Part shown: piece after piece, positions 19,876 to 61,819 of the stretch
Position numbering within the stretch: position 1 is the stretch's first letter
Layout of the letters: every line of letters starts with the position of its first letter
From: Patescibacteria group bacterium
GTDB lineage: Bacteria; Patescibacteriota; Patescibacteriia; Magasanikbacterales; GWA2-37-8
DNA length: 64,000 nucleotides
Direction: 5' to 3'
Assembly (NCBI GenBank): GCA_041661385.1
Contig: JBAZUP010000001.1
Span: 495,920-559,919, forward strand
Notes under the pieces: model-generated
Told to the model about the DNA's origin: nothing
Database searches by the model: none
The model's input: the letters and a program-made list of their open reading frames with translations, nothing else
Translations under genes and position numbers: made by a program

Positions 19876-19948
19876 GCGCCTGTAACTCAGCGGTAAGAGT
19901 GCCACCCTTATAAGGTGGAAGTCGATGGTTCGATTCCATCCAGGCGCA
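19876..19948 (+). tRNA. tRNA, anticodon read as UAU (Ile, AUA-decoding), 73 nt, no encoded CCA
   Basis: gcgcctg/caggcgc acceptor; D-arm actc-agcggtaa-gagt; anticodon arm ccacc-cttataa-ggtgg; T-arm gatgg-ttcgatt-ccatc; discriminator A. Anticodon identity is from a manual fold. Confidence 0.7.
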
Positions 19949-19982
19949 CCGCTCATTTGCATTTCTGAGGCCCGACGTAAAT

Positions 19983-25045: not shown

Positions 25046-26401
25046 TTATTGCAAGTTAAATCCTCCAATATCAATATTTACCATCGCGCCATTCTGAAAA
25101 TCTAATGCTGAAAATAAAGATGATGAAGATAATGAGGCTGCGTTATAGATCCAAAAACGATCACTGCCATTATGCCCCATTTTACCAAGACTATAACCAA
25201 ATTTATCAACTGCTACATTATCCGCTCCGTTGCAATTTCTATATAATGCGAAACCAAGCGCGTAGCCAAGAAATTGTTCTCCCTCCCCGGCGCATGTCTC
25301 GGAAGTATCAAGCAACCTCATAAAAAAGAATCCTGTAGTATTATCCTTCGCATTAGGAACAGTATTTATTGCTGCACTTGCGGGATATAAATTAGGTGAT
25401 ATTGGATTGTTTGGGTTTCGACATACCTTATATATTTTATTATGATCCCAGTCGTAGAGGCTTACAGTCGGGGATTGTGCCTGGTCATAAATAAACGGAA
25501 AAGAGTACCCGGCGATTACTCCGCAAATCGGTTGAATAAGATAAGTCGCTCTCATCCGTCCGAACAAAATGCCAGATTCACAACTATAATTCATATCTGT
25601 CGGAGCGCTGAAATGCATGTTTACGCATGATTTGCCGTCTGGACATTTTACACCATAACAGGTTGACCCTCCGCCGCCTTTATAATAATATCTTGCTCCG
25701 CAATTTGTTTCATCTGGAACAACTACATTATTATAAGTCATATTCCAATCAATCTGTTCCGGTATTGTTAGGCTTGATTTTTGATCACCAGTCGCTGGAG
25801 CCGCAAAAGAAAACAACTTTTCGATTTTTTTATTATCCTCTGTTACCTGTACCAATGAACAATAATTAGGAATTTCGCTAAACGGTCTGACCATGTATAC
25901 TTTTGGCATTTTCAAATTTACCAGATCCGGATTTATCGTGTTCAGAATAAAAAATGAACTATAAGCGATAAATAATCCGATTACCGCATTGCCAATTCGA
26001 TGTTTCGCAGTAGAAATTACTTCGCTATTCCCACCAGACATTGTCCACTGAAAACCCGACATTATTATGACAATGACCGCGAGAATTGCCGCTACGGTAA
26101 TTGCAAAATTATAATTTTTTGAAATAAATTCACCAATACTACCAAACTCCCTTACCCCACCGAATGATATAGCAGTTACCGCCTTTCCGGCTGGCAAACA
26201 CACTCCCCATTGATCAGGGCCTTCTCCACCCACACAGCCAGCTTCACCGGGCGCAAAACCGTTATGAGTCTTGTTTATTTTTTCACAGGCGGCTTTTTTC
26301 CAACAAATATCATTAAAATCCGGTGGAATAGCTGCGAGTGCCGATCCAGCTGCGAATAGATTCAAAGCAATTATCGCCGTTAAAAAGAGTTTACGTAACA
26401 T
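25046..26401 (-). CDS. Cys-rich secreted/membrane protein, hypothetical
   Basis: Signal peptide, about 20 Cys, internal TM AITVAAILAVIVIIM. Convergent neighbour of a DsbA-like gene. Confidence 0.5.
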   Translation of the reverse strand: MLRKLFLTAIIALNLFAAGSALAAIPPDFNDICWKKAACEKINKTHNGFAPGEAGCVGGEGPDQWGVCLPAGKAVTAISFGGVREFGSIGEFISKNYNFAITVAAILAVIVIIMSGFQWTMSGGNSEVISTAKHRIGNAVIGLFIAYSSFFILNTINPDLVNLKMPKVYMVRPFSEIPNYCSLVQVTEDNKKIEKLFSFAAPATGDQKSSLTIPEQIDWNMTYNNVVVPDETNCGARYYYKGGGGSTCYGVKCPDGKSCVNMHFSAPTDMNYSCESGILFGRMRATYLIQPICGVIAGYSFPFIYDQAQSPTVSLYDWDHNKIYKVCRNPNNPISPNLYPASAAINTVPNAKDNTTGFFFMRLLDTSETCAGEGEQFLGYALGFALYRNCNGADNVAVDKFGYSLGKMGHNGSDRFWIYNAASLSSSSLFSALDFQNGAMVNIDIGGFNLQ

Positions 26402-32796: not shown

Positions 32797-32824
32797 CAAA
32801 AACCCGCCTTGCGGCGGGTTTTTT
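32797..32824. terminator. Bidirectional terminator; 3' end of rnpB on the minus strand
   Basis: aaaaacccgccttgcggcgggtttttt. Confidence 0.75.
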
Positions 32825-32825
32825 A

Positions 32826-33217
32826 GTCTAAAGTTATAAGCCGAATTCTGTCAAGCCTCCCTTTCGGAAGACAGGGATAATCATTTATCTGGGATGGTTG
32901 TTACCAACCACCTCTAGCGAGCGAACTTTTCGAATCCGTTTTACCGGAAACGCTGCTCTTGCATCAGGTAGGGTTTAGCACACTCGTAAATCGCTTTACA
33001 AGGAGTATAGTGGCTTTGATCTAGAACCAAAACCTCCATACACTTTTCACCTTTCATCCCGACTAAATCGGAACTAGTATTGTCTCTGTGCCACTTTCCC
33101 GACTGCCGTATCACTACGGGAGTGGTGGGCGTTACCCACTACCACTTTCCGCCTTGCGACGGAGATGTTCGGACTTTCCTCCCCATGCGAAGCATGGAGC
33201 GATTATCTACTTTAGAC
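32826..33217 (-). ncRNA. rnpB: RNase P RNA
   Basis: Minus-strand motifs: GGAAAGUCCGAAC (P4 5' strand), GAAAGUGGCACAGAGACAA, ACAGAAUUCGGCUUAU (P4 3' strand). P1 pairs gucuaaagu (5') with acuuuagac (3'). Confidence 0.85.
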
Positions 33218-33224
33218 GGTAAAT

Positions 33225-33253
33225 ATTATAACATAAAAACTTGTTTTTGTCAA
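33225..33253 (-). promoter_or_regulatory. Consensus sigma70 promoter for rnpB
   Basis: Minus strand reads TTGACA, 17 nt, TATAAT. Transcript 5' end lies about 7 nt downstream at the P1 helix. Confidence 0.7.
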
Positions 33254-33287: not shown

Positions 33288-33309
33288 GCCAGCCGACGGT
33301 GCGGCTGGC
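33288..33309 (-). terminator. Terminator for the 33336-34502 gene
   Basis: gccagccg/acggtg/cggctggc followed on the minus strand by a T-run. Confidence 0.65.
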
Positions 33310-33335
33310 GATCCTTTGATAATTATTACCTATAC

Positions 33336-34502
33336 CTATTGCTCACGGGCGTTTTTCCAGACTCCTGAGTCTGTGACACTTGCACTTTTGACTTGTTTTA
33401 CATAGTCGGAAGTACTCATGTTCACATCCCTTGAATTCTGGGCTTTGGCCTGGGAGAGCGGCCTCCCCGAATGCCAGACGGAAATCACATCGTCGGGGTT
33501 GTGCTTATAGGTTTGAAGCAGTTTCCGAATCTGGAACAACGCAACTTTTCGGTAGACGTCCGGCTCACGAATGAGCAATTCCGGCGTATACCGAATTCCG
33601 GTCGCTTCTTCAGACCACTGAGGGATATTTTCTCCCATGATTTGAGCCATTCCATAGGCTCTATCATAGGGGACTCCCTTCACCACCTTGATCCAAGGAT
33701 TGTAGGGTCCTGGCTTGTTAACCAAGATCATTGTGGGTTTGCCCCACACGTTTTTCTTTTGAACCCAGACCTTCATCTGAACCCATGGACCATAGGCCTT
33801 TATGCGACCCGAACTTTCACGAACCGTGAGTTGCTCCAAAAGAAGCAAAGCTTCAACATCGTCACGATTCAAGTGCGCAACAGCATCCTTTACGATCCCT
33901 TCCCGATCCTTTCCGCCGGATTTCTCCAGCTTCTGTTGAACCAGGTCAAGCTCGTCAACGAGAGCGGTCTTTTCACTGCGCTCCTTTTGCGCCTCGTTTT
34001 CGGCCTTCGTCTTGGCCTTACTCAGATCCAAGATCACTCTTTGCTGAGCGATGTTGTCAGCTTTCATCTTCTTGAAGATCGGGGCATCCTGTGCAATCAC
34101 GAGGCCTGCTTCCTTGATGGTTGCAGTAACCTCTTGACGAATCGATGCGGCGAGCTCCGGAGAGATCTTCGCGTCAATCGGCACAATCACGTTCTGTGAG
34201 GAGTTCTCGCGAACGACCTTGCCGATATCGGCCAGAAAATCATTCTTGAGTTCCTTGAAGTCCGTGATGGAAGGAATTTTCCTTCCGATTATGAAGGCGG
34301 CAACGAGACCAGCGACCAGAGCGATTCCGAAAAAGTGCGCATAGGCCTTGAAAAAGCTCTTGCGAGCCGGCGTAAAGTACCTCTTTGGGACTCGGTTGAT
34401 CGGCCGAGCAAGCTTTCTGGCTTCACTAACCACGATGGGTTGTTCCGGTTGGGAACTTGCGTTCACCACACGAAGAAAATTTCGAGCCGGGAGTTGGTCC
34501 AC
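33336..34502 (-). CDS. Membrane-anchored protein with a C-terminal muramidase/lytic-transglycosylase-like domain; GC-rich, GTG start
   Basis: GTG start at 34500-34502 preceded by AAGGAGG. One TM (FFGIALVAGLVAAFIIG), a coiled-coil, C-terminal RAYGMAQIMGEN motif. Codon usage favours AAG/CTG, unlike neighbouring genes. Confidence 0.45.
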   Translation of the reverse strand: MDQLPARNFLRVVNASSQPEQPIVVSEARKLARPINRVPKRYFTPARKSFFKAYAHFFGIALVAGLVAAFIIGRKIPSITDFKELKNDFLADIGKVVRENSSQNVIVPIDAKISPELAASIRQEVTATIKEAGLVIAQDAPIFKKMKADNIAQQRVILDLSKAKTKAENEAQKERSEKTALVDELDLVQQKLEKSGGKDREGIVKDAVAHLNRDDVEALLLLEQLTVRESSGRIKAYGPWVQMKVWVQKKNVWGKPTMILVNKPGPYNPWIKVVKGVPYDRAYGMAQIMGENIPQWSEEATGIRYTPELLIREPDVYRKVALFQIRKLLQTYKHNPDDVISVWHSGRPLSQAKAQNSRDVNMSTSDYVKQVKSASVTDSGVWKNAREQ

Positions 34503-34748
34503 TTTGTCCTCCTTGGGACAGGTTGGGCAGCCCCCCGGCTTTTAGGCGAAAGGCTGGCGCTAGGTAATATTTCAAAGGACATTGTTTAAAACAACTACAA
34601 CTAATATAGCATGTCGTAAACGTAATATAATACCTTAAATTGGCCATTTTGTCAAGGCTTTATTTTACCCAATTTGTTGACTTTGGCCTATTTTTAGCAT
34701 AAAATATGGCTATTAAGCCATTTTATCCAAAACCCATACCGTCATAAT

Positions 34749-36167
34749 ATGAAACGTTTTGAGCTAGTTTTCGCTTTTATTCAACTACCTTTGGATTTAG
34801 TTCTTATTTTGCTTGCCGGAGCCTCAGCCTACTCTTTACGCTATGCAAGTTTCATTACTGAAATTCGGCCAATTCTTTTTAATCTTTCTTGGGATAAATT
34901 TTTTCCCGCCCTACTTCTTACTGCTTTCGGCTGGATTATTATTTACGCGCTTTCCGGCCTCTATACTACTAACCCAAATCGTAAACTAGCCTCCGACCTC
35001 ATGAGAGTAATTTCTGCTAGTTCGTCTGGCTTCGCTGCTATTACCATTTACGTTTTTTTTACCTTACAAAAATTTGATTCGCGTTTTTTGGTTCTGGCTG
35101 GTTGGATTATTGCCATGATTTATGTAATTATCGGACGCATTGCCATGCGCGGCATCAAAGGCCTTCTTTATCGCAAAGGTATCGGCCTGCGCTCCACAAT
35201 AATTATCGGATCAGACACCGTAGCAAACCTGATTAAATCCACCCTCAACAATGAACCACAATTTGGTTTTAAAATAATCGCTAGTTTCAATAAATTTGGC
35301 AAAGAAGAAGAGGATCAAATATTAAAATTAAACCCCGACGAAATAATTTTCAGCCACGCTCGCGGCAGTGAAAGCGAAGCGATCCAAGCGATTGGCTTTG
35401 CCAATCGCCACCATATCGCGTTTAAATATTCCGCTGACCTGTTTGAAACAATTTCCAGTAACATGACTATTTCAACCATTGGCGGCATACCGCTCGTCGA
35501 GCTCGGCCGAACTAGCCTCGCGGGCTGGGGTCGAATGGTTAAAAGATTTACCGACATTTTTTTAGGAATATTTTTCTTAATTTTATTCTCGCCTTTTTTT
35601 CTAATCATTTCAATCATTATTTACTTTGAAACCGGTTCGCCAATAATTTATAAAAATGAAAGAGTCGGACAAAAAAACAAGAAATTCTACACTTTAAAAT
35701 TTCGAACCATGTACCAGAATGTTTCGACCGGCGAGCAATTTGGAAAATCTGGTGAAAAAGCGCTCGAGCTTGAAAAAGAATTAATCAACAACAATGGCAT
35801 AAAAAATGGACCGGTTTATAAAATAAAAAACGACCCGCGCGTAACCAAGTTTGGACATTTTTTGCGCCGGTTTAGTCTTGATGAATTACCGCAATTTTGG
35901 AATATTGTCCGTGGCGATATGAGCCTGGTCGGTCCGAGACCTCATCAACCTCGCGAAGTTGAAAAATACGCGAACGAACATTCAGTTTTATTTGCAATCA
36001 AACCCGGCCTCACCGGACTTGCTCAAATTTCCGGACGCAGTCATCTTACCTTTGAAGAAGAAGCAAAACTCGATACTTTTTACGTAGAGAATTGGCAACC
36101 TTATCTTGATTTTATTATTTTAATAAAAACCCCATTTATTGTGCTTTGGGGTAAGGGCGCATTATAA
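34749..36167 (+). CDS. Polyprenyl-phosphate sugar phosphotransferase (WbaP / bacterial sugar transferase family)
   Basis: Multi-TM N-terminus. C-terminal [23 protein letters not shown] signature. Confidence 0.85.
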
Positions 36168-38642: not shown

Positions 38643-38966
38643 ATGACCAAAAAGAAGGACGAAGGCAAGATTGCGGCACTCAAGGAAAAGATTCAGGCCA
38701 ACAAGGAAAAGCTGGCGCACAAGCGCCGGCTACAAGAACGCAATCTGATCTACGTGTCACAGTTCGGAAACCTCGAGGTCATGGCGACCCTTGCAGGCCA
38801 CTTGGTTCTTCGGAACAAGGTCGGCGGGTCGGAAATTACGATTCGTCTTCGAGGCAGCGTCTTCATAGTGAAGACACCGCGCGGCACGCTTCAGGTCGAC
38901 AAGATGTGGTTCAGAATCACAAACGATCTAGAAGACAGCGACGAGTCCGAAAGTCCCACCACGTAA
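38643..38966 (+). CDS. Small GC-rich hypothetical protein, 107 aa
   Basis: AGGAGA Shine-Dalgarno 5 nt before ATG 38643. AAG- and GC3-rich codons unlike the host genes. The track's 38511 start is a TTG lying inside the -35 box. Terminator follows. Confidence 0.55.
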   Translation: MTKKKDEGKIAALKEKIQANKEKLAHKRRLQERNLIYVSQFGNLEVMATLAGHLVLRNKVGGSEITIRLRGSVFIVKTPRGTLQVDKMWFRITNDLEDSDESESPTT

Positions 38967-51432: not shown

Positions 51433-53145
51433 TTATTCTGACACCCGGAATACTTCATCAAGAGAAGTAATCTTTTCCAAAGCTTTTAAAACACCATCCT
51501 GCGCAGTAGTAACCATGCCATCTTTTTTAGCAATTTCTTCAATTGCGTGAGCAGAAACCTGACCACCCAAAACTACCGCTTCAATTTCTTTAGTCATGAC
51601 GAAAATTTCATAAATACCGATTCGCCCCTTATAACCAAGTCCGCTGCATTTTTCACAGCCTTTACCTTTATAAAAATGAATGTTATTAAAATCAACATTG
51701 GGCTTTTCGGCCGGCGGTAAAGTTTCGAGAAGTTTCATCGCTTTATCCAATTTTTCACCTTTTTGCAGATCTTCCTCAATACAATTTTCACAAATGCGGC
51801 GAACTAAACGCTGGCCAACAATCGTATTTAAGGCCGGAGCAAGAAGAAAAGGCTTAACACCCATTGAAACGAGACGAGGCAAAGCCCCGGCAGCACTATT
51901 GGTATGAATTGTTGATAAAATTAAATGCCCGGTTAAAGCGGACTGAATTGAAATCTCCGCAGTTTCGAGATCGCGAATTTCACCGACCATACAAATATCC
52001 GGGTCCTGACGAAGAAGACTGCGCAACCCTTTGGCAAAAGTATAATCCCGGCTTGGGTCAACCTGACTTTGATTCAAACCTTCCATTTTAATTTCAATCG
52101 GATCTTCCAAGGTAATTATTTTTACCCCTGGTTTATTTAAAGTTCTAATAATCGCGTAAAGCGTGGTAGTTTTACCACAGCCAGTTGGACCCGTAGTTAC
52201 AATCATGCCATTCGGTCTTTCTACTTCGCGTTTTAAGCGATTGAAAGCATCTCCGCGCAAACCAAGCTCATCAAATGTCACGCCCTTATTTCCGCTGCGC
52301 AAAATACGCATTACCACACTCTCTCCCCACATCGTCGGCATGGTAGACACACGCAAATCGAGACTGTCTTTTGATAGGTGCAGAGTAACCCGGCCATCCT
52401 GCGGCCGATCAGTAACATTAATTTTTAATGCGGCGAGAATTTTAATACGCGAAACAAATTGTTTCCATTGTTGGCGCGGCAACATCGCAAGATCGTGCAA
52501 AACTCCATCGATACGATACCGCACCGCAACGCCGTTTTCTTCCGCTTCTACGTGCACGTCAGACGCACCCATTTTTAAAGCCGTCGCAATCATAAGAGTT
52601 ACCACATCGCTTATTGATACGCCCTTAAAAGCGTCTTGAACCTCCTTAAGATTGTTTATGCCGGCTTCAAAACGATTTAATTCTTCGTCGGTAATATTAA
52701 TATCCTTATTAACTAATTTTACAATTGGCAAAGTCGCATACAGTTTTAAAACATGCTCAAAACTATGGCTTGAAATCAAATAAGTTGCCGCGTGAGCCTG
52801 AAATCTTTTACTTAATTCTTCGACAAATTTTAAAACCTCTACCGACGGATCCATGATGCCGATTCTTATTTCATCTGAACTAAAATAAAAACAAGCGACG
52901 CCATAATCTTTGGCTTCTTGTTCCGAAAGAGATTTAAGAGCTTCCGCCGATACCGGAAAACTTGCGAGATCAATATATGGCATATTCAGCTCTTCCGCTC
53001 TTTTTGCCACATTTTTTTCTAACTCTTTAAACCCAATTTCCTCCATTTTTTGAGTAAAAGCCGCCTGAGTCGGTGGCTCATCACTTTTTTTCACTGTCTT
53101 GCCCGAAGACAAGATATCATTAATTGAAGGAAAATCAGAAGACAT
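51433..53145 (-). CDS. Type II secretion / type IV pilus assembly ATPase (GspE/PilB family)
   Basis: VTTGPTGCGKTTTLYA Walker A, Asp box, His box, C-terminal CxxC...CxxC zinc motif (CENCIEED...CEKCSGLGYKGR). Confidence 0.85.
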   Translation of the reverse strand: MSSDFPSINDILSSGKTVKKSDEPPTQAAFTQKMEEIGFKELEKNVAKRAEELNMPYIDLASFPVSAEALKSLSEQEAKDYGVACFYFSSDEIRIGIMDPSVEVLKFVEELSKRFQAHAATYLISSHSFEHVLKLYATLPIVKLVNKDINITDEELNRFEAGINNLKEVQDAFKGVSISDVVTLMIATALKMGASDVHVEAEENGVAVRYRIDGVLHDLAMLPRQQWKQFVSRIKILAALKINVTDRPQDGRVTLHLSKDSLDLRVSTMPTMWGESVVMRILRSGNKGVTFDELGLRGDAFNRLKREVERPNGMIVTTGPTGCGKTTTLYAIIRTLNKPGVKIITLEDPIEIKMEGLNQSQVDPSRDYTFAKGLRSLLRQDPDICMVGEIRDLETAEISIQSALTGHLILSTIHTNSAAGALPRLVSMGVKPFLLAPALNTIVGQRLVRRICENCIEEDLQKGEKLDKAMKLLETLPPAEKPNVDFNNIHFYKGKGCEKCSGLGYKGRIGIYEIFVMTKEIEAVVLGGQVSAHAIEEIAKKDGMVTTAQDGVLKALEKITSLDEVFRVSE

Positions 53146-60413: not shown

Positions 60414-61385
60414 CTACTGGTTGATGGGGACCAGCCTGCCATCTGCGCTCATTGACATGAGCTGACTAGTCGCGGGCTGAGCGCCGCAAGAAGTAATCAC
60501 AGTTGCCGTGAGCAGTTGGACCTCGCCGGGCCTAAGCGACACGGTATTCGGAGACACCGAAACGCTCACAACCTTGTCCGTCACAGTGACGGCAGCGACA
60601 GATGACTTGGTGACATCGGCCTTGCTGACCGCCACTATGTGGTAAATGCCGGCGATTGCCGGAGCGGTGTAGAGACCAGTGGCGGAGATTGTTCCGCCCG
60701 CTGCTCCCTCCTGAATGGACCAGGTGACACCGGTGTTACTGGTGCCGCTAATAATTGTGCCAAACTGATACGTGAGGCACGAATTGATTGCGGCTGTTGC
60801 CGGCGAAACTGCGATGCTGACCACCGGATTAACGACAATCGGCGAATTGACGGCAACCGCGGCGGTTGCTGACTTTCTGTTTTTTACGACCGTGGTCGCA
60901 ATCACATGAAAGTTACCAGCATTGGCCGGCGCAGAGTACAAACCAGTTGCGGAAATGGTCCCGCCACCGGTTTCCGTGACAGACCAACTGACAGAAGTAT
61001 CTGTTGGACCAGTCACAGTAGCCACGAACTGAATGTTGCCACCGACGAGAACCTGCGCCGAAGAAGGGCTGACAGAAATGACTGTCCTTCGCACCTTTAC
61101 GGCCGCACTGCCGACCAGCGAATTGCTGGTTGTTCGCAGCACATGGTATGTGCCATCACTTGCCGGCGCTGTGTAAAGACCGGTCGAAGAAATGGTTCCA
61201 CCATTGGTCTCCATGACTGACCAGGTACCTGCCTCGGCTGAGACAAATTGCTGGCTGTCGCCAACTTCGAGTTCAGCCGAAGCTGGACTCACGGTAACTG
61301 GTGTGACTGTCACCACCTGAGAGGTGGTAATCTCGGCCGGAACGCAACCGACCAGAAGAAACAGCATGACCATGAAACTCTTCAT
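60414..61385 (-). CDS. Lipoprotein with three Ig-like (Big_2-type) repeats; GC-rich
   Basis: Start at ATG 61383-61385: MKSFMVMLFLLVGC lipobox. Three repeats of about 90 aa (...GGTISATGLY.AP...G.YHV.A.S...). GC clearly higher than flanking genes. Confidence 0.65.
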   Translation of the reverse strand: MKSFMVMLFLLVGCVPAEITTSQVVTVTPVTVSPASAELEVGDSQQFVSAEAGTWSVMETNGGTISSTGLYTAPASDGTYHVLRTTSNSLVGSAAVKVRRTVISVSPSSAQVLVGGNIQFVATVTGPTDTSVSWSVTETGGGTISATGLYSAPANAGNFHVIATTVVKNRKSATAAVAVNSPIVVNPVVSIAVSPATAAINSCLTYQFGTIISGTSNTGVTWSIQEGAAGGTISATGLYTAPAIAGIYHIVAVSKADVTKSSVAAVTVTDKVVSVSVSPNTVSLRPGEVQLLTATVITSCGAQPATSQLMSMSADGRLVPINQ

Positions 61386-61390
61386 GGAGA

Positions 61391-61819
61391 TTACGCCGCC
61401 CTTCCTGGACGACGGAACATCCGCCAGTTCGGATGGGTTAGCGCGTAATCGCGGCAAGCCATCTTGGAGCAATACAAATTGCCATCAGCCTCGAGCCAAT
61501 CCTTCGGATTGTTGGTCGTGTCGTCACATCGAAGACACTGATAGGCCAAATGACCCAAAGGCTTCTCGCCCGCAACTGCAAGCTGATTCGAGATCTTCTC
61601 GACATTGCTGACCTTCTTGTCAGTCCGATTGGCGAGACCGCGCCGGTGTCGACACGGGCTCGAATTGCAATAGTGCTTATCGCCAACGATATCCCAATTT
61701 CTCGGGAAGTACTTTGAACCGACCGGAATGGCCGACTTGTTCTTGCAATTCTCTTCATCGCAACTGAATTGCTGAAACTTTGCTCCACTGCCAGTGGTTT
61801 GGATGGTAGCGTCGAACAT
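61391..61819 (-). CDS. 8-Cys protein (four CxnC pairs; two predicted zinc-ribbon-like sites); GC-rich
   Basis: GGAGGA Shine-Dalgarno 6 nt before ATG. CDEENC, CNSSPC, CLRC, CSKMAC. No signal peptide. Confidence 0.55.
   Translation of the reverse strand: MFDATIQTTGSGAKFQQFSCDEENCKNKSAIPVGSKYFPRNWDIVGDKHYCNSSPCRHRRGLANRTDKKVSNVEKISNQLAVAGEKPLGHLAYQCLRCDDTTNNPKDWLEADGNLYCSKMACRDYALTHPNWRMFRRPGRAA

What the first reader, a model, noticed from the sequence alone, without database searches (positions are those of the whole stretch)
33288..34560. GC-rich membrane-anchored muramidase-like gene with GTG start and AAGGAGG Shine-Dalgarno, wedged between rnpB and the polysaccharide locus
Codon usage and GC differ from neighbouring genes. 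The start is GTG preceded by a textbook Shine-Dalgarno, a pattern typical of high-GC Gram-positives. The C-terminal domain carries a RAYGMAQIMGEN motif reminiscent of lytic transglycosylase or N-acetylmuramidase catalytic regions. If this organism is an episymbiont, a horizontally acquired cell-wall hydrolase is a plausible host-interaction factor. That is speculative.
Basis: partly seen in the sequence, partly recalled or inferred. Interest (0 to 1): 0.5.

Follow-up and report, generated by a model that had tools for sequence, protein, structure and literature searches.

The report
Membrane-anchored phage-type lytic transglycosylase gene
A GC-rich gene inserted next to the RNase P RNA gene of a Magasanikbacteria (CPR/Patescibacteria) genome encodes a membrane-tethered cell-wall-cutting enzyme whose nearest relatives are phage virion proteins. 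It is a real, horizontally gained peptidoglycan glycosidase, but whether it cuts the bacterium's own wall or a host's wall is untested.

Summary
Window 33336..34502 (-) is a 388-aa gene with a GTG start, AAGGAGG 5 nt upstream, its own promoter and its own terminator. Its GC3 is 0.58 against a window mean of 0.37. It lies between rnpB and a Bac_transf/GT4 polysaccharide locus.

The protein has four parts:
- a basic N-terminal tail;
- one TM helix (53-73);
- a roughly 130-aa helical stalk;
- a C-terminal lysozyme-like domain.

The remote relatives are mostly phage structural-module proteins, and the best viral contigs have 63-68% GC. Only 7 close homologues exist. All those with readable flanks occupy the same slot, and sister species have an empty slot. 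This points to one gain in a subclade.

The gene evolves fast (55% identity versus 80-94% for its flanks) and keeps both its high GC and its SD in every orthologue. Native genes lack SD.

The core of the interpretation (LT-like enzyme, horizontal origin) is supported. The host-interaction role is untested. I rate it a new variant of a known kind, of moderate interest.

The parts
34627..34655 (-). Sigma-70-type promoter of the gene (TTGACA, 17 nt, TATTAT)
   Evidence: 11 of 12 consensus matches. TTGACA and the -10 box are conserved in all five orthologous loci.
34503..34620 (-). 5' UTR of about 118 nt with two conserved hairpins; the second (GC-rich, ...AAAGCCGGGGGGCTGCC) lies just before the SD
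   Evidence: RNAalifold on 4 orthologues gives 31 pairs, 4 of them with compensatory changes. See also alignment A4. The TSS position is inferred from the -10 box.
34508..34514 (-). Shine-Dalgarno AAGGAGG, 5 nt before the GTG
   Evidence: Read from the sequence. AAGGAGGAC is conserved in window, L002, L085 and L003, with TAGGAGGAC in L001. It is the only full SD among 47 ORFs.
33336..34502 (-). CDS of 388 aa, GTG start, stop at 33336-33338
   Evidence: ORF list. Seven homologues with E from 1e-251 to 2e-42.
34347..34502 (-). Residues 1-52: basic tail predicted to be cytoplasmic (11 K/R, 3 D/E)
   Evidence: The sequence is poorly conserved between orthologues.
34284..34346 (-). Residues 53-73: single transmembrane helix (AYAHFFGIALVAGLVAAFIIG)
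   Evidence: Kyte-Doolittle maximum 2.24, the only window scoring above 1.6. Orthologues have a hydrophobic stretch at the same place.
33888..34283 (-). Residues 74-205: helical, charged stalk or linker (possibly coiled coil)
   Evidence: Helices 79-100, 115-139 and 141-194 in a low-confidence full-length model, pLDDT 45-66. This part has the highest GC3 of the gene, 0.65. The structure is inferred only.
33339..33887 (-). Residues 206-388: GH23/SLT-like lysozyme-fold catalytic domain with an extended beta-hairpin insertion (about residues 240-280)
33813..33818 (-). Glu229-Ser230, the predicted catalytic acid (motif I, 'ES')
   Evidence: Codons verified. Glu is invariant in 155 of 155 family sequences and Ser/Thr is present in 153 of 155. 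It aligns to the Glu-Ser of Slt70.
33627..33662 (-). RAYGMAQIMGEN (residues 281-292), the motif II equivalent of GLMQ
   Evidence: G284, Q287, M289 and N292 are invariant or nearly invariant in 155 sequences.
33465..33476 (-). W343-H-S-G346, the variant of motif III (AYNxG)
   Evidence: W343 and G346 are invariant in 155 of 155 sequences. It aligns to AAYN of Slt70.
33288..33309 (-). Intrinsic terminator of the gene (8-bp stem with 7 GC pairs, then TTTCTTTTTT)
   Evidence: The region is conserved in L085.
32821..33253 (-). Neighbouring rnpB with its own perfect promoter (33225-33253); it marks the left edge of the insertion slot
   Evidence: Rfam RF00010, 176 bits. Promoter matches 12 of 12.

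Best explanation
The locus is a self-contained, monocistronic, horizontally gained gene. It was inserted as a block of about 1.4 kb between the rnpB promoter and the promoter of the Bac_transf polysaccharide gene, in the ancestor of a small subclade of Candidatus Magasanikbacteria.

It encodes a bitopic (N-in, C-out) membrane protein:
- a basic cytoplasmic tail;
- one TM helix;
- a helical stalk of about 130 residues;
- an extracytoplasmic GH23-type (family-1 lytic-transglycosylase fold) domain.

The domain belongs to an unannotated, phage-dominated branch of the lysozyme-like superfamily. That branch consists of virion or tail-associated wall-cutting proteins, corresponding to PHROGs 24990, 35176 and 6654.

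Proposed mechanism. Glu229, at the end of the first helix of the domain, acts as the single general acid/base on the MurNAc-beta-1,4-GlcNAc bond of peptidoglycan. The product would be either a 1,6-anhydro-MurNAc end (lytic transglycosylase) or a hydrolysed end (muramidase). The conserved G-x-x-Q-I-M and W-H-S-G motifs line the cleft.

Proposed role. Because the enzyme is tethered to the producer's membrane on a stalk, I think it most likely cuts the producer's own sacculus locally, as an accessory remodelling or space-making enzyme. This would be a domesticated phage wall-cutter.

Shown: gene structure, fold, motif conservation, phage kinship, presence/absence pattern and composition. Inferred: topology, catalysis, substrate and biological role.
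For: Gene unit. Promoter, UTR, SD and terminator are identified.

Protein anatomy. TM helix and charge asymmetry.

Fold and motifs.
- AF2 pLDDT 95.1 for residues 206-378.
- The top 27 Foldseek-PDB hits are all lytic transglycosylases or the SLT-domain lysozyme DslA.
- E229, G284, Q287, M289, W296, W343, G346, D359 and Y367 are invariant or nearly so in 155 sequences.
- hhalign places the ES, GLMQ and AYN motifs in register with Slt70.
- Pfam SLT is hit by 10 of 40 remote members.

Phage kinship.
- 1826 remote relatives.
- Relatives sit in phage structural modules alongside SU10_adaptor and Gp10_C.
- 455 IMG/VR contigs carry the family.
- Streptomyces-phage minor tail protein/glycosylase, E 1e-7.
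- BFVD top hits at E 6e-8 to 9e-6.
- PHROG hits in 34 of 40 members.

Gain.
- The host is Magasanikbacteria.
- L010, L012 and L013 have rnpB adjacent to Bac_transf.
- The gene is present only where Bac_transf is at least 66% identical to the window copy and absent where it is 62% or less.
- The locus is the same in L001, L002, L084 and L085.

Purifying selection. The C-terminal domain is 76-79% identical among orthologues while four-fold sites are near saturation.

Accessory status. Native wall genes (FtsW/RodA and YceG/MltG) with native composition lie in the same window, so the organism makes peptidoglycan and this enzyme is an extra.
Against: - No enzymatic or expression data exist.
- The window protein does not reach any Pfam, NCBIfam or PDB sequence threshold by itself.
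- Foldseek-PDB E-values are not significant (0.2-2).
- Motif III is W-H-S-G rather than A-Y-N-x-G.
- The stalk structure comes from a low-confidence model.
- No integrase, repeats or other mobile-element scars flank the gene, so the route of entry is unknown.
- The own-wall role is an argument from tethering only. A fully extended stalk of about 130 residues (up to about 20 nm) could also present the domain at the cell surface.
Confidence: 0.7

Rival explanations
1. Same enzyme, but used on another cell. The stalk presents the domain at the surface of the episymbiont, where it opens the wall of a host bacterium for attachment, nutrient uptake or killing.
For: - The ancestry is from phage virion proteins whose job is to breach a foreign wall from outside.
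- The gene is accessory, restricted to a subclade, and evolves much faster than its flanks: 55% versus 80-94% identity. A variable beta-hairpin insertion sits next to the cleft. Both features fit an interaction interface.
- The best viral relatives and the only cultured-phage hits point to high-GC, Actinobacteria-type walls.
- In Saccharibacteria, peptidase and lysozyme homologues next to virB4 are reported to be essential for epibiotic growth (PMC12102498, read).
Against: - The protein has an uncleaved TM anchor and no secretion-system or pilus partner next to it. The nearest T2SSE/PilB-like gene is 17 kb away, and a borderline T4SS_pilin-like gene is 7 kb away.
- The lifestyle and host of Magasanikbacteria are unknown.
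- Most of the fast evolution lies in the tail and stalk rather than the catalytic domain.
Confidence: 0.2
2. Decaying prophage or mobile-element remnant (a lysis or virion gene left behind) with no present cellular function.
For: - The family is phage-type.
- Composition and SD are foreign.
- It lies next to a stable-RNA gene, a classic integration neighbourhood.
- L008 carries a different GC-rich gene in the same slot.
Against: - The ORF is intact in six independent genomes at the same locus.
- Promoter, UTR hairpins and SD are conserved.
- Catalytic motifs are invariant, and the domain is 76-79% identical while four-fold sites are near saturation.
- No other phage genes, integrase or att-like repeats are nearby.
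Confidence: 0.05
3. The high GC and the SD are not marks of foreign origin. They would be maintained by a gene-specific force such as selection on mRNA structure or translation, or GC-biased gene conversion at a recombination hot spot beside the surface-polysaccharide locus.
For: - All six orthologues keep GC3 at 0.58-0.75 against flanks at 0.37-0.44, although four-fold sites of the flanking genes are almost randomised (identity 0.33-0.41).
- The SD and a GC-rich hairpin are conserved.
- Between L001 and L085, the LT gene is much less diverged at four-fold sites (0.56) than the adjacent Bac_transf (0.29). This suggests allele exchange by recombination.
- A second GC-rich, SD-led small gene flanks the other end of the same three-gene cassette in both the window and L001.
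Against: - The presence/absence pattern shows the gene really was inserted.
- The relatives are phage proteins from GC-rich contigs.
- A rough calculation leaves about 30-40% of an initial GC3 excess un-ameliorated. A donor with GC3 near 0.9 (as in the islands of L001 and L008) would therefore still give 0.55-0.65 today, without any special force.
- The polysaccharide genes themselves are not GC-rich.
Confidence: 0.15
4. The domain binds glycan strands but is not catalytic (a wall anchor or sensor).
For: - Motif III deviates from the canonical form.
- No direct hit to curated SLT models.
- No activity data.
Against: The catalytic Glu-Ser, the G-x-x-Q-x-M motif and the aromatic cleft residues are invariant across 155 sequences spanning phage and cellular members. 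This is the pattern expected of an active enzyme.
Confidence: 0.05

Closest known systems
Family-1 lytic transglycosylases of glycoside hydrolase family GH23 (Slt70, P. aeruginosa Slt, C. jejuni Cj0843c, N. meningitidis LtgA, MltC, MltE; Pfam SLT PF01464)
   Same: - Single catalytic Glu followed by Ser at the end of a helix.
- GLMQ-type second motif and an aromatic-x-x-Gly third motif, all in register.
   Different: - Only 12-19% identity, and no hit of the window protein to PF01464.
- W-H-S-G instead of A-Y-N-x-G.
- A longer four-stranded beta insertion between motifs I and II.
- Anchored by an N-terminal TM helix and a long helical stalk, rather than being a periplasmic or lipoprotein enzyme of a diderm.
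Phage virion- or tail-associated wall-cutting proteins of PHROGs 24990, 35176 and 6654 (unannotated). Examples are the 'minor tail protein/glycosylase' of Streptomyces phages Immanuel3, Manuel and FlowerPower, and proteins of about 200 aa in SU10-like podovirus structural modules
   Same: - True sequence homologues: profile E down to 1e-23; 35-49% identity over the core.
- Same invariant residues.
- Best structural matches: BFVD E 6e-8, TM 0.64.
   Different: - The phage proteins are soluble, sit among virion genes, and are often fused to CHAP or to very long tail or ejection proteins.
- The window protein is a solitary cellular gene with a tail, a TM helix, a stalk and a larger beta-hairpin.
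VirB1-like hydrolases of monoderm type IV secretion systems (PrgK of pCF10, TraG of pIP501, TcpG)
   Same: - N-terminal membrane anchor plus an SLT-like domain acting outside a monoderm membrane (own knowledge, and PMC12102498 read).
- Remote relatives of this family combine the domain with CHAP, as TraG does.
   Different: - No CHAP or LytM domain in this protein.
- No virB4, T4CP or other T4SS gene in the 64-kb window, apart from a borderline T4SS_pilin-like ORF 7 kb away.
Coiled-coil peptidoglycan hydrolases controlled by FtsEX (PcsB, CwlO, RipC, EnvC)
   Same: A long helical N-terminal region followed by a C-terminal wall hydrolase domain. This is a resemblance recalled from my own knowledge.
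   Different: - Their catalytic domains are CHAP, NlpC/P60 or LytM, not GH23.
- They are secreted rather than TM-anchored.
- No FtsEX is seen in the window.
- Not tested further.
SAR (signal-arrest-release) endolysins such as P1 Lyz and phage 21 R
   Same: An N-terminal Gly/Ala-rich hydrophobic helix ahead of a lysozyme-fold domain of phage origin (own knowledge).
   Different: - Here a 52-residue basic tail precedes the helix and a 130-residue stalk follows it.
- The gene is solitary, syntenic and conserved in cellular genomes, and is not part of a lysis cassette.

Membership tests
GH23 / family-1 lytic transglycosylase (SLT superfamily) | Lysozyme-like alpha+beta fold superimposable on the Slt70-type catalytic domain | tested here: met
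   [not shown]
GH23 / family-1 lytic transglycosylase (SLT superfamily) | Motif I: catalytic Glu followed by Ser at the C-terminal end of a helix | tested here: met
   E229-S230 lies at the end of helix 214-231 of the protein (model H9-26). Glu is present in 155 of 155 sequences and Ser/Thr in 153 of 155.
GH23 / family-1 lytic transglycosylase (SLT superfamily) | Motif II: G-L-M-Q | tested here: met
   Present in variant form as G284-M-A-Q287-I-M289. G and Q are invariant and M289 is present in 154 of 155 sequences. It aligns to SGLMQIM.
GH23 / family-1 lytic transglycosylase (SLT superfamily) | Motif III: A-Y-N-x-G | tested here: inconclusive
   W343-H-S-G346 sits at the aligned position. W and G are invariant, but the Tyr-Asn pair is replaced.
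GH23 / family-1 lytic transglycosylase (SLT superfamily) | Significant match to the curated model (Pfam PF01464 or related clan members) | tested here: not met
   The window protein has no hit even at E <= 10. The link is transitive only: 10 of 40 remote relatives hit SLT (best E 2.6e-6), 2 hit Phage_lysozyme2 and 1 hits SLT_3.
GH23 / family-1 lytic transglycosylase (SLT superfamily) | Non-hydrolytic cleavage giving 1,6-anhydro-MurNAc (as opposed to muramidase hydrolysis) | not testable with these tools
   Needs muropeptide analysis. GH23 contains both lytic transglycosylases and goose-type lysozymes.
Phage virion-associated wall-cutting proteins (PHROG 24990 / 35176 / 6654) | Sequence membership in the PHROG profiles | tested here: inconclusive
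   The window protein scores phrog_35176 at E 3.9e-4 and phrog_24990 at E 0.016. Its remote relatives match strongly: 34, 32 and 30 of 40 members, with E down to 2.5e-27. The profile-to-relative link has E 1.6e-23.
Phage virion-associated wall-cutting proteins (PHROG 24990 / 35176 / 6654) | Encoded within a phage structural (tail or ejection) module | tested here: not met
   The flanks are rnpB, RNase J, a 2-hydroxyacid dehydrogenase and polysaccharide genes. No close relative is found in IMG/VR.
T4SS VirB1-like hydrolase of monoderms | Genetic linkage to virB4 or other T4SS genes | tested here: not met
   Pfam scans of the other ORFs of at least 120 aa in the window found no VirB4, T4CP or VirB6. 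There is only a sub-threshold T4SS_pilin match at 25046-26401.
T4SS VirB1-like hydrolase of monoderms | Two-domain SLT + CHAP (or LytM) architecture | tested here: not met
   No second catalytic domain is detected in the window protein.

The most novel reading that the evidence does not exclude
In these Magasanikbacteria, native genes start without a Shine-Dalgarno. Part of the Parcubacteria is reported to lack the anti-SD altogether (PMC9297842). Against this background, a small set of GC-rich, SD-led genes would form a separate, maintained class of xenogenes with their own mode of translation control:
- this transglycosylase;
- the 107-aa gene at 38643-38966;
- the Cys-rich gene at 61391-61819;
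- GC3 0.89 genes in L001 and L008.

Within that class, this membrane-tethered phage-type transglycosylase would be the tool with which the episymbiont opens the wall of a high-GC Gram-positive host.
Probability: 0.12. Interest if true: 0.7.

Novelty: new variant of a known kind. Interest (0 to 1): 0.4.

Why it matters
Patescibacteria have tiny genomes, and how they handle their own wall and that of their hosts is largely unknown. This gene has three points of interest.

- **Domesticated phage enzyme.** It is a clear case of a phage virion wall-cutter converted into a membrane-tethered cellular enzyme and then kept for a long time in one lineage.
- **Annotation gap.** It gives a name (GH23-like lytic transglycosylase/muramidase) to a large family that was previously unannotated: 1826 representatives, three PHROGs of unknown function, and phage 'minor tail proteins'.
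- **Translation signals.** It exposes a sharp contrast between SD-less native genes and SD-led GC-rich imports. That contrast could be used to study translation initiation and gene flow in CPR bacteria.

The enzyme class itself is ordinary.

Tried and rejected
Searches and analyses that led nowhere:
- Direct searches with the protein gave nothing usable. Pfam gave only DUF5727 at E 0.19, NCBIfam gave nothing, and PDB phmmer gave only chance hits. The PDB search with the narrow profile also gave nothing.
- The broad profile against PDB sequences hit only Mycoplasma adhesin P1 (E 5e-4 over 46 residues) and no transglycosylase. I treat this as unexplained and probably chance.
- AF2 of the full-length protein with 7 sequences was poor (pLDDT 44.5). 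Only the domain model built with 40 sequences was usable.
- GTDB species representatives hold no relative of the close family. IMG/VR holds no close relative either. The one metagenome scan returned only the contig already known.
- The afdb50 fold library was not available.
- The search for mobile-element scars found only a 12-nt imperfect inverted repeat (33321-33332 / 34561-34572) bracketing the GC-rich block and short chance-level direct repeats. It is not conserved in an obvious way in orthologues, so I do not rely on it.
- The antisense ORF 33471..34199 (+, 242 aa) is taken as a by-product of high GC. All homology, conservation and structure support belong to the minus-strand frame.
- The anti-SD question could not be tested, because no 16S rRNA is present in the window or in any fetched locus.

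Ideas considered and rejected:
- SAR endolysin: rejected on architecture and on the solitary, syntenic position of the gene.
- VirB1-like T4SS hydrolase: rejected for lack of linkage to T4SS genes.
- FtsEX-type coiled-coil hydrolase: a resemblance from memory, not tested.
Full report
**1.

The longest ORF in the flagged interval is 33336..34502 on the minus strand. It is 388 aa and starts with GTG. AAGGAGG lies 5 nt upstream of the GTG.

Rfam places bacterial RNase P RNA at 32821..33218 (-), at 176 bits. The divergent neighbour at 34749 is a Bac_transf sugar transferase, followed by two GT4 glycosyltransferases.

The gene has GC 0.508 and GC3 0.584. The 48 long ORFs of the window average GC3 0.371 with sd 0.071. 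A fine-scale profile shows the GC-rich block between about 33375 and 34570. The RAYGMAQIMGEN peptide is encoded at 33627-33662.

**2. The transcription unit**

The gene is self-contained:
- a promoter at 34655-34627 (-), TTGACA-17-TATTAT, 11 of 12 matches;
- an intrinsic terminator at 33309-33288 (-).

rnpB has its own perfect promoter at 33253-33225.

In five orthologous loci the promoter is conserved, as is a 5' UTR of about 120 nt with two hairpins (4 pairs with compensatory changes among 4 sequences). The SD, which reads AAGGAGGAC in four of the orthologous loci (window, L002, L085, L003), is conserved too. Orthologues start with ATG at the same position, which fixes the start codon.

**3. 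The protein**

- One hydrophobic helix spans residues 53-73, and it is the only segment above the Kyte-Doolittle threshold.
- It follows a tail with 11 K/R against 3 D/E. By the positive-inside rule the tail is cytoplasmic and the rest is outside. This is an inference.
- Residues 79-209 are predicted helical, but only at pLDDT 45-66.
- There are no cysteines.

**4. The C-terminal domain**

The protein on its own matches nothing in Pfam, NCBIfam or the PDB sequences. Only seven proteins among 5.8 billion are close homologues, and none carries a Pfam domain.

A profile of the conserved C-terminal part found 1826 representatives at E <= 1e-3, covering a core of about 100 residues. In an alignment of 155 of them, E229 is invariant and S230 is Ser/Thr in 153. 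G284, Q287, M289, N292, W296, W343, G346, D359 and Y367 are invariant or nearly so.

Links to known families:
- Ten of 40 diverse members reach Pfam SLT (best E 2.6e-6). Two reach Phage_lysozyme2 and one reaches SLT_3.
- Some full-length relatives add a CHAP domain.
Even so, it puts VRES on RQES, AYGMAQIM on ASGLMQIM, and WHS on AYN.

Structure:
- With the 40-sequence alignment, AlphaFold2 gave pLDDT 95.1 for residues 206-378.
- The top 27 Foldseek-PDB hits are lytic transglycosylases or the SLT-domain lysozyme DslA, though with non-significant E-values.

Whether the chemistry is lytic transglycosylation or hydrolysis cannot be told from sequence.

**5. Where the family lives**

- The remote relatives are mostly unnamed proteins of about 200 aa on contigs of about 40 kb.
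- Two that I looked up sit in phage structural modules next to SU10_adaptor, Gp10_C and Phage_stabilise genes.
- 455 IMG/VR contigs encode a relative.
- They correspond to PHROGs 24990, 35176 and 6654, all of unknown function.
- Among cultured phages, only Streptomyces phages match. Their proteins are annotated minor tail protein or glycosylase, at 35% identity and E 1e-7.
- The best structural matches in BFVD are uncultured Caudovirales proteins and a Streptomyces-phage minor tail protein, with E from 6e-8 to 9e-6.
- The best-matching viral contigs have 63-68% GC, and the median of the best 80 is 55%.

**6. Host and history of the locus**

RNase J from the window finds Candidatus Magasanikbacteria MAGs as nearest genomes, at up to 85% identity. 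The order tRNA-Leu, RNase J, rnpB is conserved in that group.

All close homologues with readable flanks sit in the same slot:
- L001, L084 and L085 sit beside Bac_transf, with rnpB DNA also matching downstream of the gene in L084 and L085;
- L002 is next to rnpB and RNase J.

In L010, L012 and L013, rnpB abuts Bac_transf directly. None of the 80 Patescibacteria RNase J neighbourhoods contains the domain.

Presence tracks relatedness. The gene occurs where Bac_transf is 82, 79 or 66% identical to the window copy. It is absent where Bac_transf is 62% identical or less. One gain in a subclade is the simplest reading.

L008 carries a different GC-rich (GC3 0.894), SD-led gene of 199 aa in the same slot, so the slot may be a repeated landing site. 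No integrase or convincing repeats flank the window gene.

**7. Composition and the SD**

All six orthologues have GC3 of 0.58-0.75, against 0.37-0.44 for their flanks.

The gene also evolves fast. It is 55% identical between the window and L001 or L002, where the flanking proteins are 80-94% identical. Most of the change is in the tail and stalk. The catalytic domain stays 76-79% identical.

Four-fold sites of flanking genes are close to random between these genomes, at 0.33-0.41 identity. My rough estimate from those numbers is that 30-40% of an initial GC3 excess would remain. A donor with GC3 near 0.9 could then still leave 0.55-0.65 today. That is a back-of-envelope inference, not a fit. 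The alternative, a gene-specific force keeping GC high, is not excluded.

One oddity remains. Between L001 and L085 the gene is much less diverged at four-fold sites (0.56) than the adjacent Bac_transf (0.29). This hints at allele exchange.

The SD contrast is sharp. Of 47 long ORFs in the window, only this gene has AAGGAGG. The only other real gene starts with an SD core are two further GC-rich genes, 38643-38966 and 61391-61819. Independent gene calls in L001, L002, L084 and L085 show the same pattern.

A published survey reports that the anti-SD motif is missing from the 16S rRNA of about half of Parcubacteria (PMC9297842, read). I could not check this organism, because no 16S rRNA is at hand.

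**8. How it most likely works**

I propose a membrane-tethered, extracytoplasmic peptidoglycan glycosidase of the GH23 type, with Glu229 as the catalytic acid. It would derive from a phage virion wall-cutter and be kept under purifying selection.

The organism makes peptidoglycan. FtsW/RodA and the native transglycosylase YceG/MltG are in the window with native composition. This enzyme is therefore an extra.

Because it stays anchored in the producer's membrane, I favour local cutting of the producer's own wall. A dead remnant and a non-catalytic binder are unlikely, given the conservation pattern.

**9. Comparison with what is known, and verdict**

The protein works like a family-1 lytic transglycosylase. 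It meets the fold and motif I and II criteria. Motif III is a variant, and the curated Pfam model is not matched directly. I therefore file it as a divergent GH23-like branch rather than a plain SLT member.

Its true sequence family is the unannotated phage group. From that group it differs by its cellular, solitary locus and by the tail, TM helix and stalk. It is not linked to T4SS genes.

The enzyme class is ordinary. The architecture, the phage-to-cell domestication in a CPR lineage and the GC/SD contrast are the new parts. Rating: new variant of a known kind, interest 0.4.

Noticed in passing
window 38643-38966 (+); L001 5467-5763 (-): A second GC-rich, SD-led small gene (107 aa, GC3 0.69) sits at the far end of the same three-gene Bac_transf/GT4/GT4 cassette. 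Its L001 counterpart (98 aa) has GC3 0.89 and is only 35% identical. Neither has a Pfam hit.
   Followed up: partly
window 60414-61385 (-) and 61391-61819 (-): This is another GC-rich block (GC 0.56). It holds a lipoprotein-like protein with Big_2 Ig-like repeats and, upstream of it, a Cys-rich 142-aa ORF preceded by GGAGG.
   Followed up: partly
whole window; L001, L002, L084, L085: Native genes have no Shine-Dalgarno upstream of their starts. Only one of the 46 other long ORFs shows even an SD core, while the GC-rich genes do have one. The anti-SD status of this organism could not be checked.
   Followed up: partly
window 14019, 14698, 21770, 37329 (+) and 51322 (-): An 18-nt motif, TCAYTYATTTMRAAT followed directly by ATG, precedes five genes, including nusG, rplK and a GT4 gene. 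There are 5 exact matches against 0.15 expected by chance. It may be a leader or initiation signal of native genes.
   Followed up: partly
L008 11229-11828 (-): In a sister Magasanikbacteria genome, the rnpB-to-Bac_transf interval holds a different foreign-looking gene (199 aa, GC 0.66, GC3 0.894, GGAGG upstream, no Pfam hit). This suggests the interval is a repeated landing site.
   Followed up: partly
L001 10001-11095 vs L085 1444-2577: The transglycosylase genes of these two genomes are 0.56 identical at four-fold sites. The adjacent Bac_transf genes are only 0.29 identical, at similar protein identity (85% versus 86%). This may reflect allele exchange by recombination.
   Followed up: partly
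window 34503-34620 (-): The 5' leader is conserved and carries two hairpins (31 predicted pairs, 4 with compensatory changes among 4 orthologues). No Rfam family matches it.
   Followed up: partly
window 19876-19950 (+): ARAGORN calls a tRNA-Ile with anticodon TAT, which is an uncommon way of reading AUA in bacteria.
   Followed up: no
window 25046-26401 (-): A 451-aa protein has a sub-threshold T4SS_pilin (VirB2-like) match of 25.0 bits against a cutoff of 26.6. A T2SSE/PilB-type ATPase lies at 51433-53145 (-).
   Followed up: no
family profile A3 vs PDB: The only PDB sequence hit of the broad family profile is Mycoplasma adhesin P1 (E 5e-4, 46 residues, covering the IPxW...YGN segment). It is probably chance but remains unexplained.
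   Followed up: no
window 33321-33332 and 34561-34572: A 12-nt imperfect inverted repeat (AATTATTACCTA / TAGGTAATATTT) brackets the GC-rich block exactly. It is short enough to be chance.
   Followed up: partly
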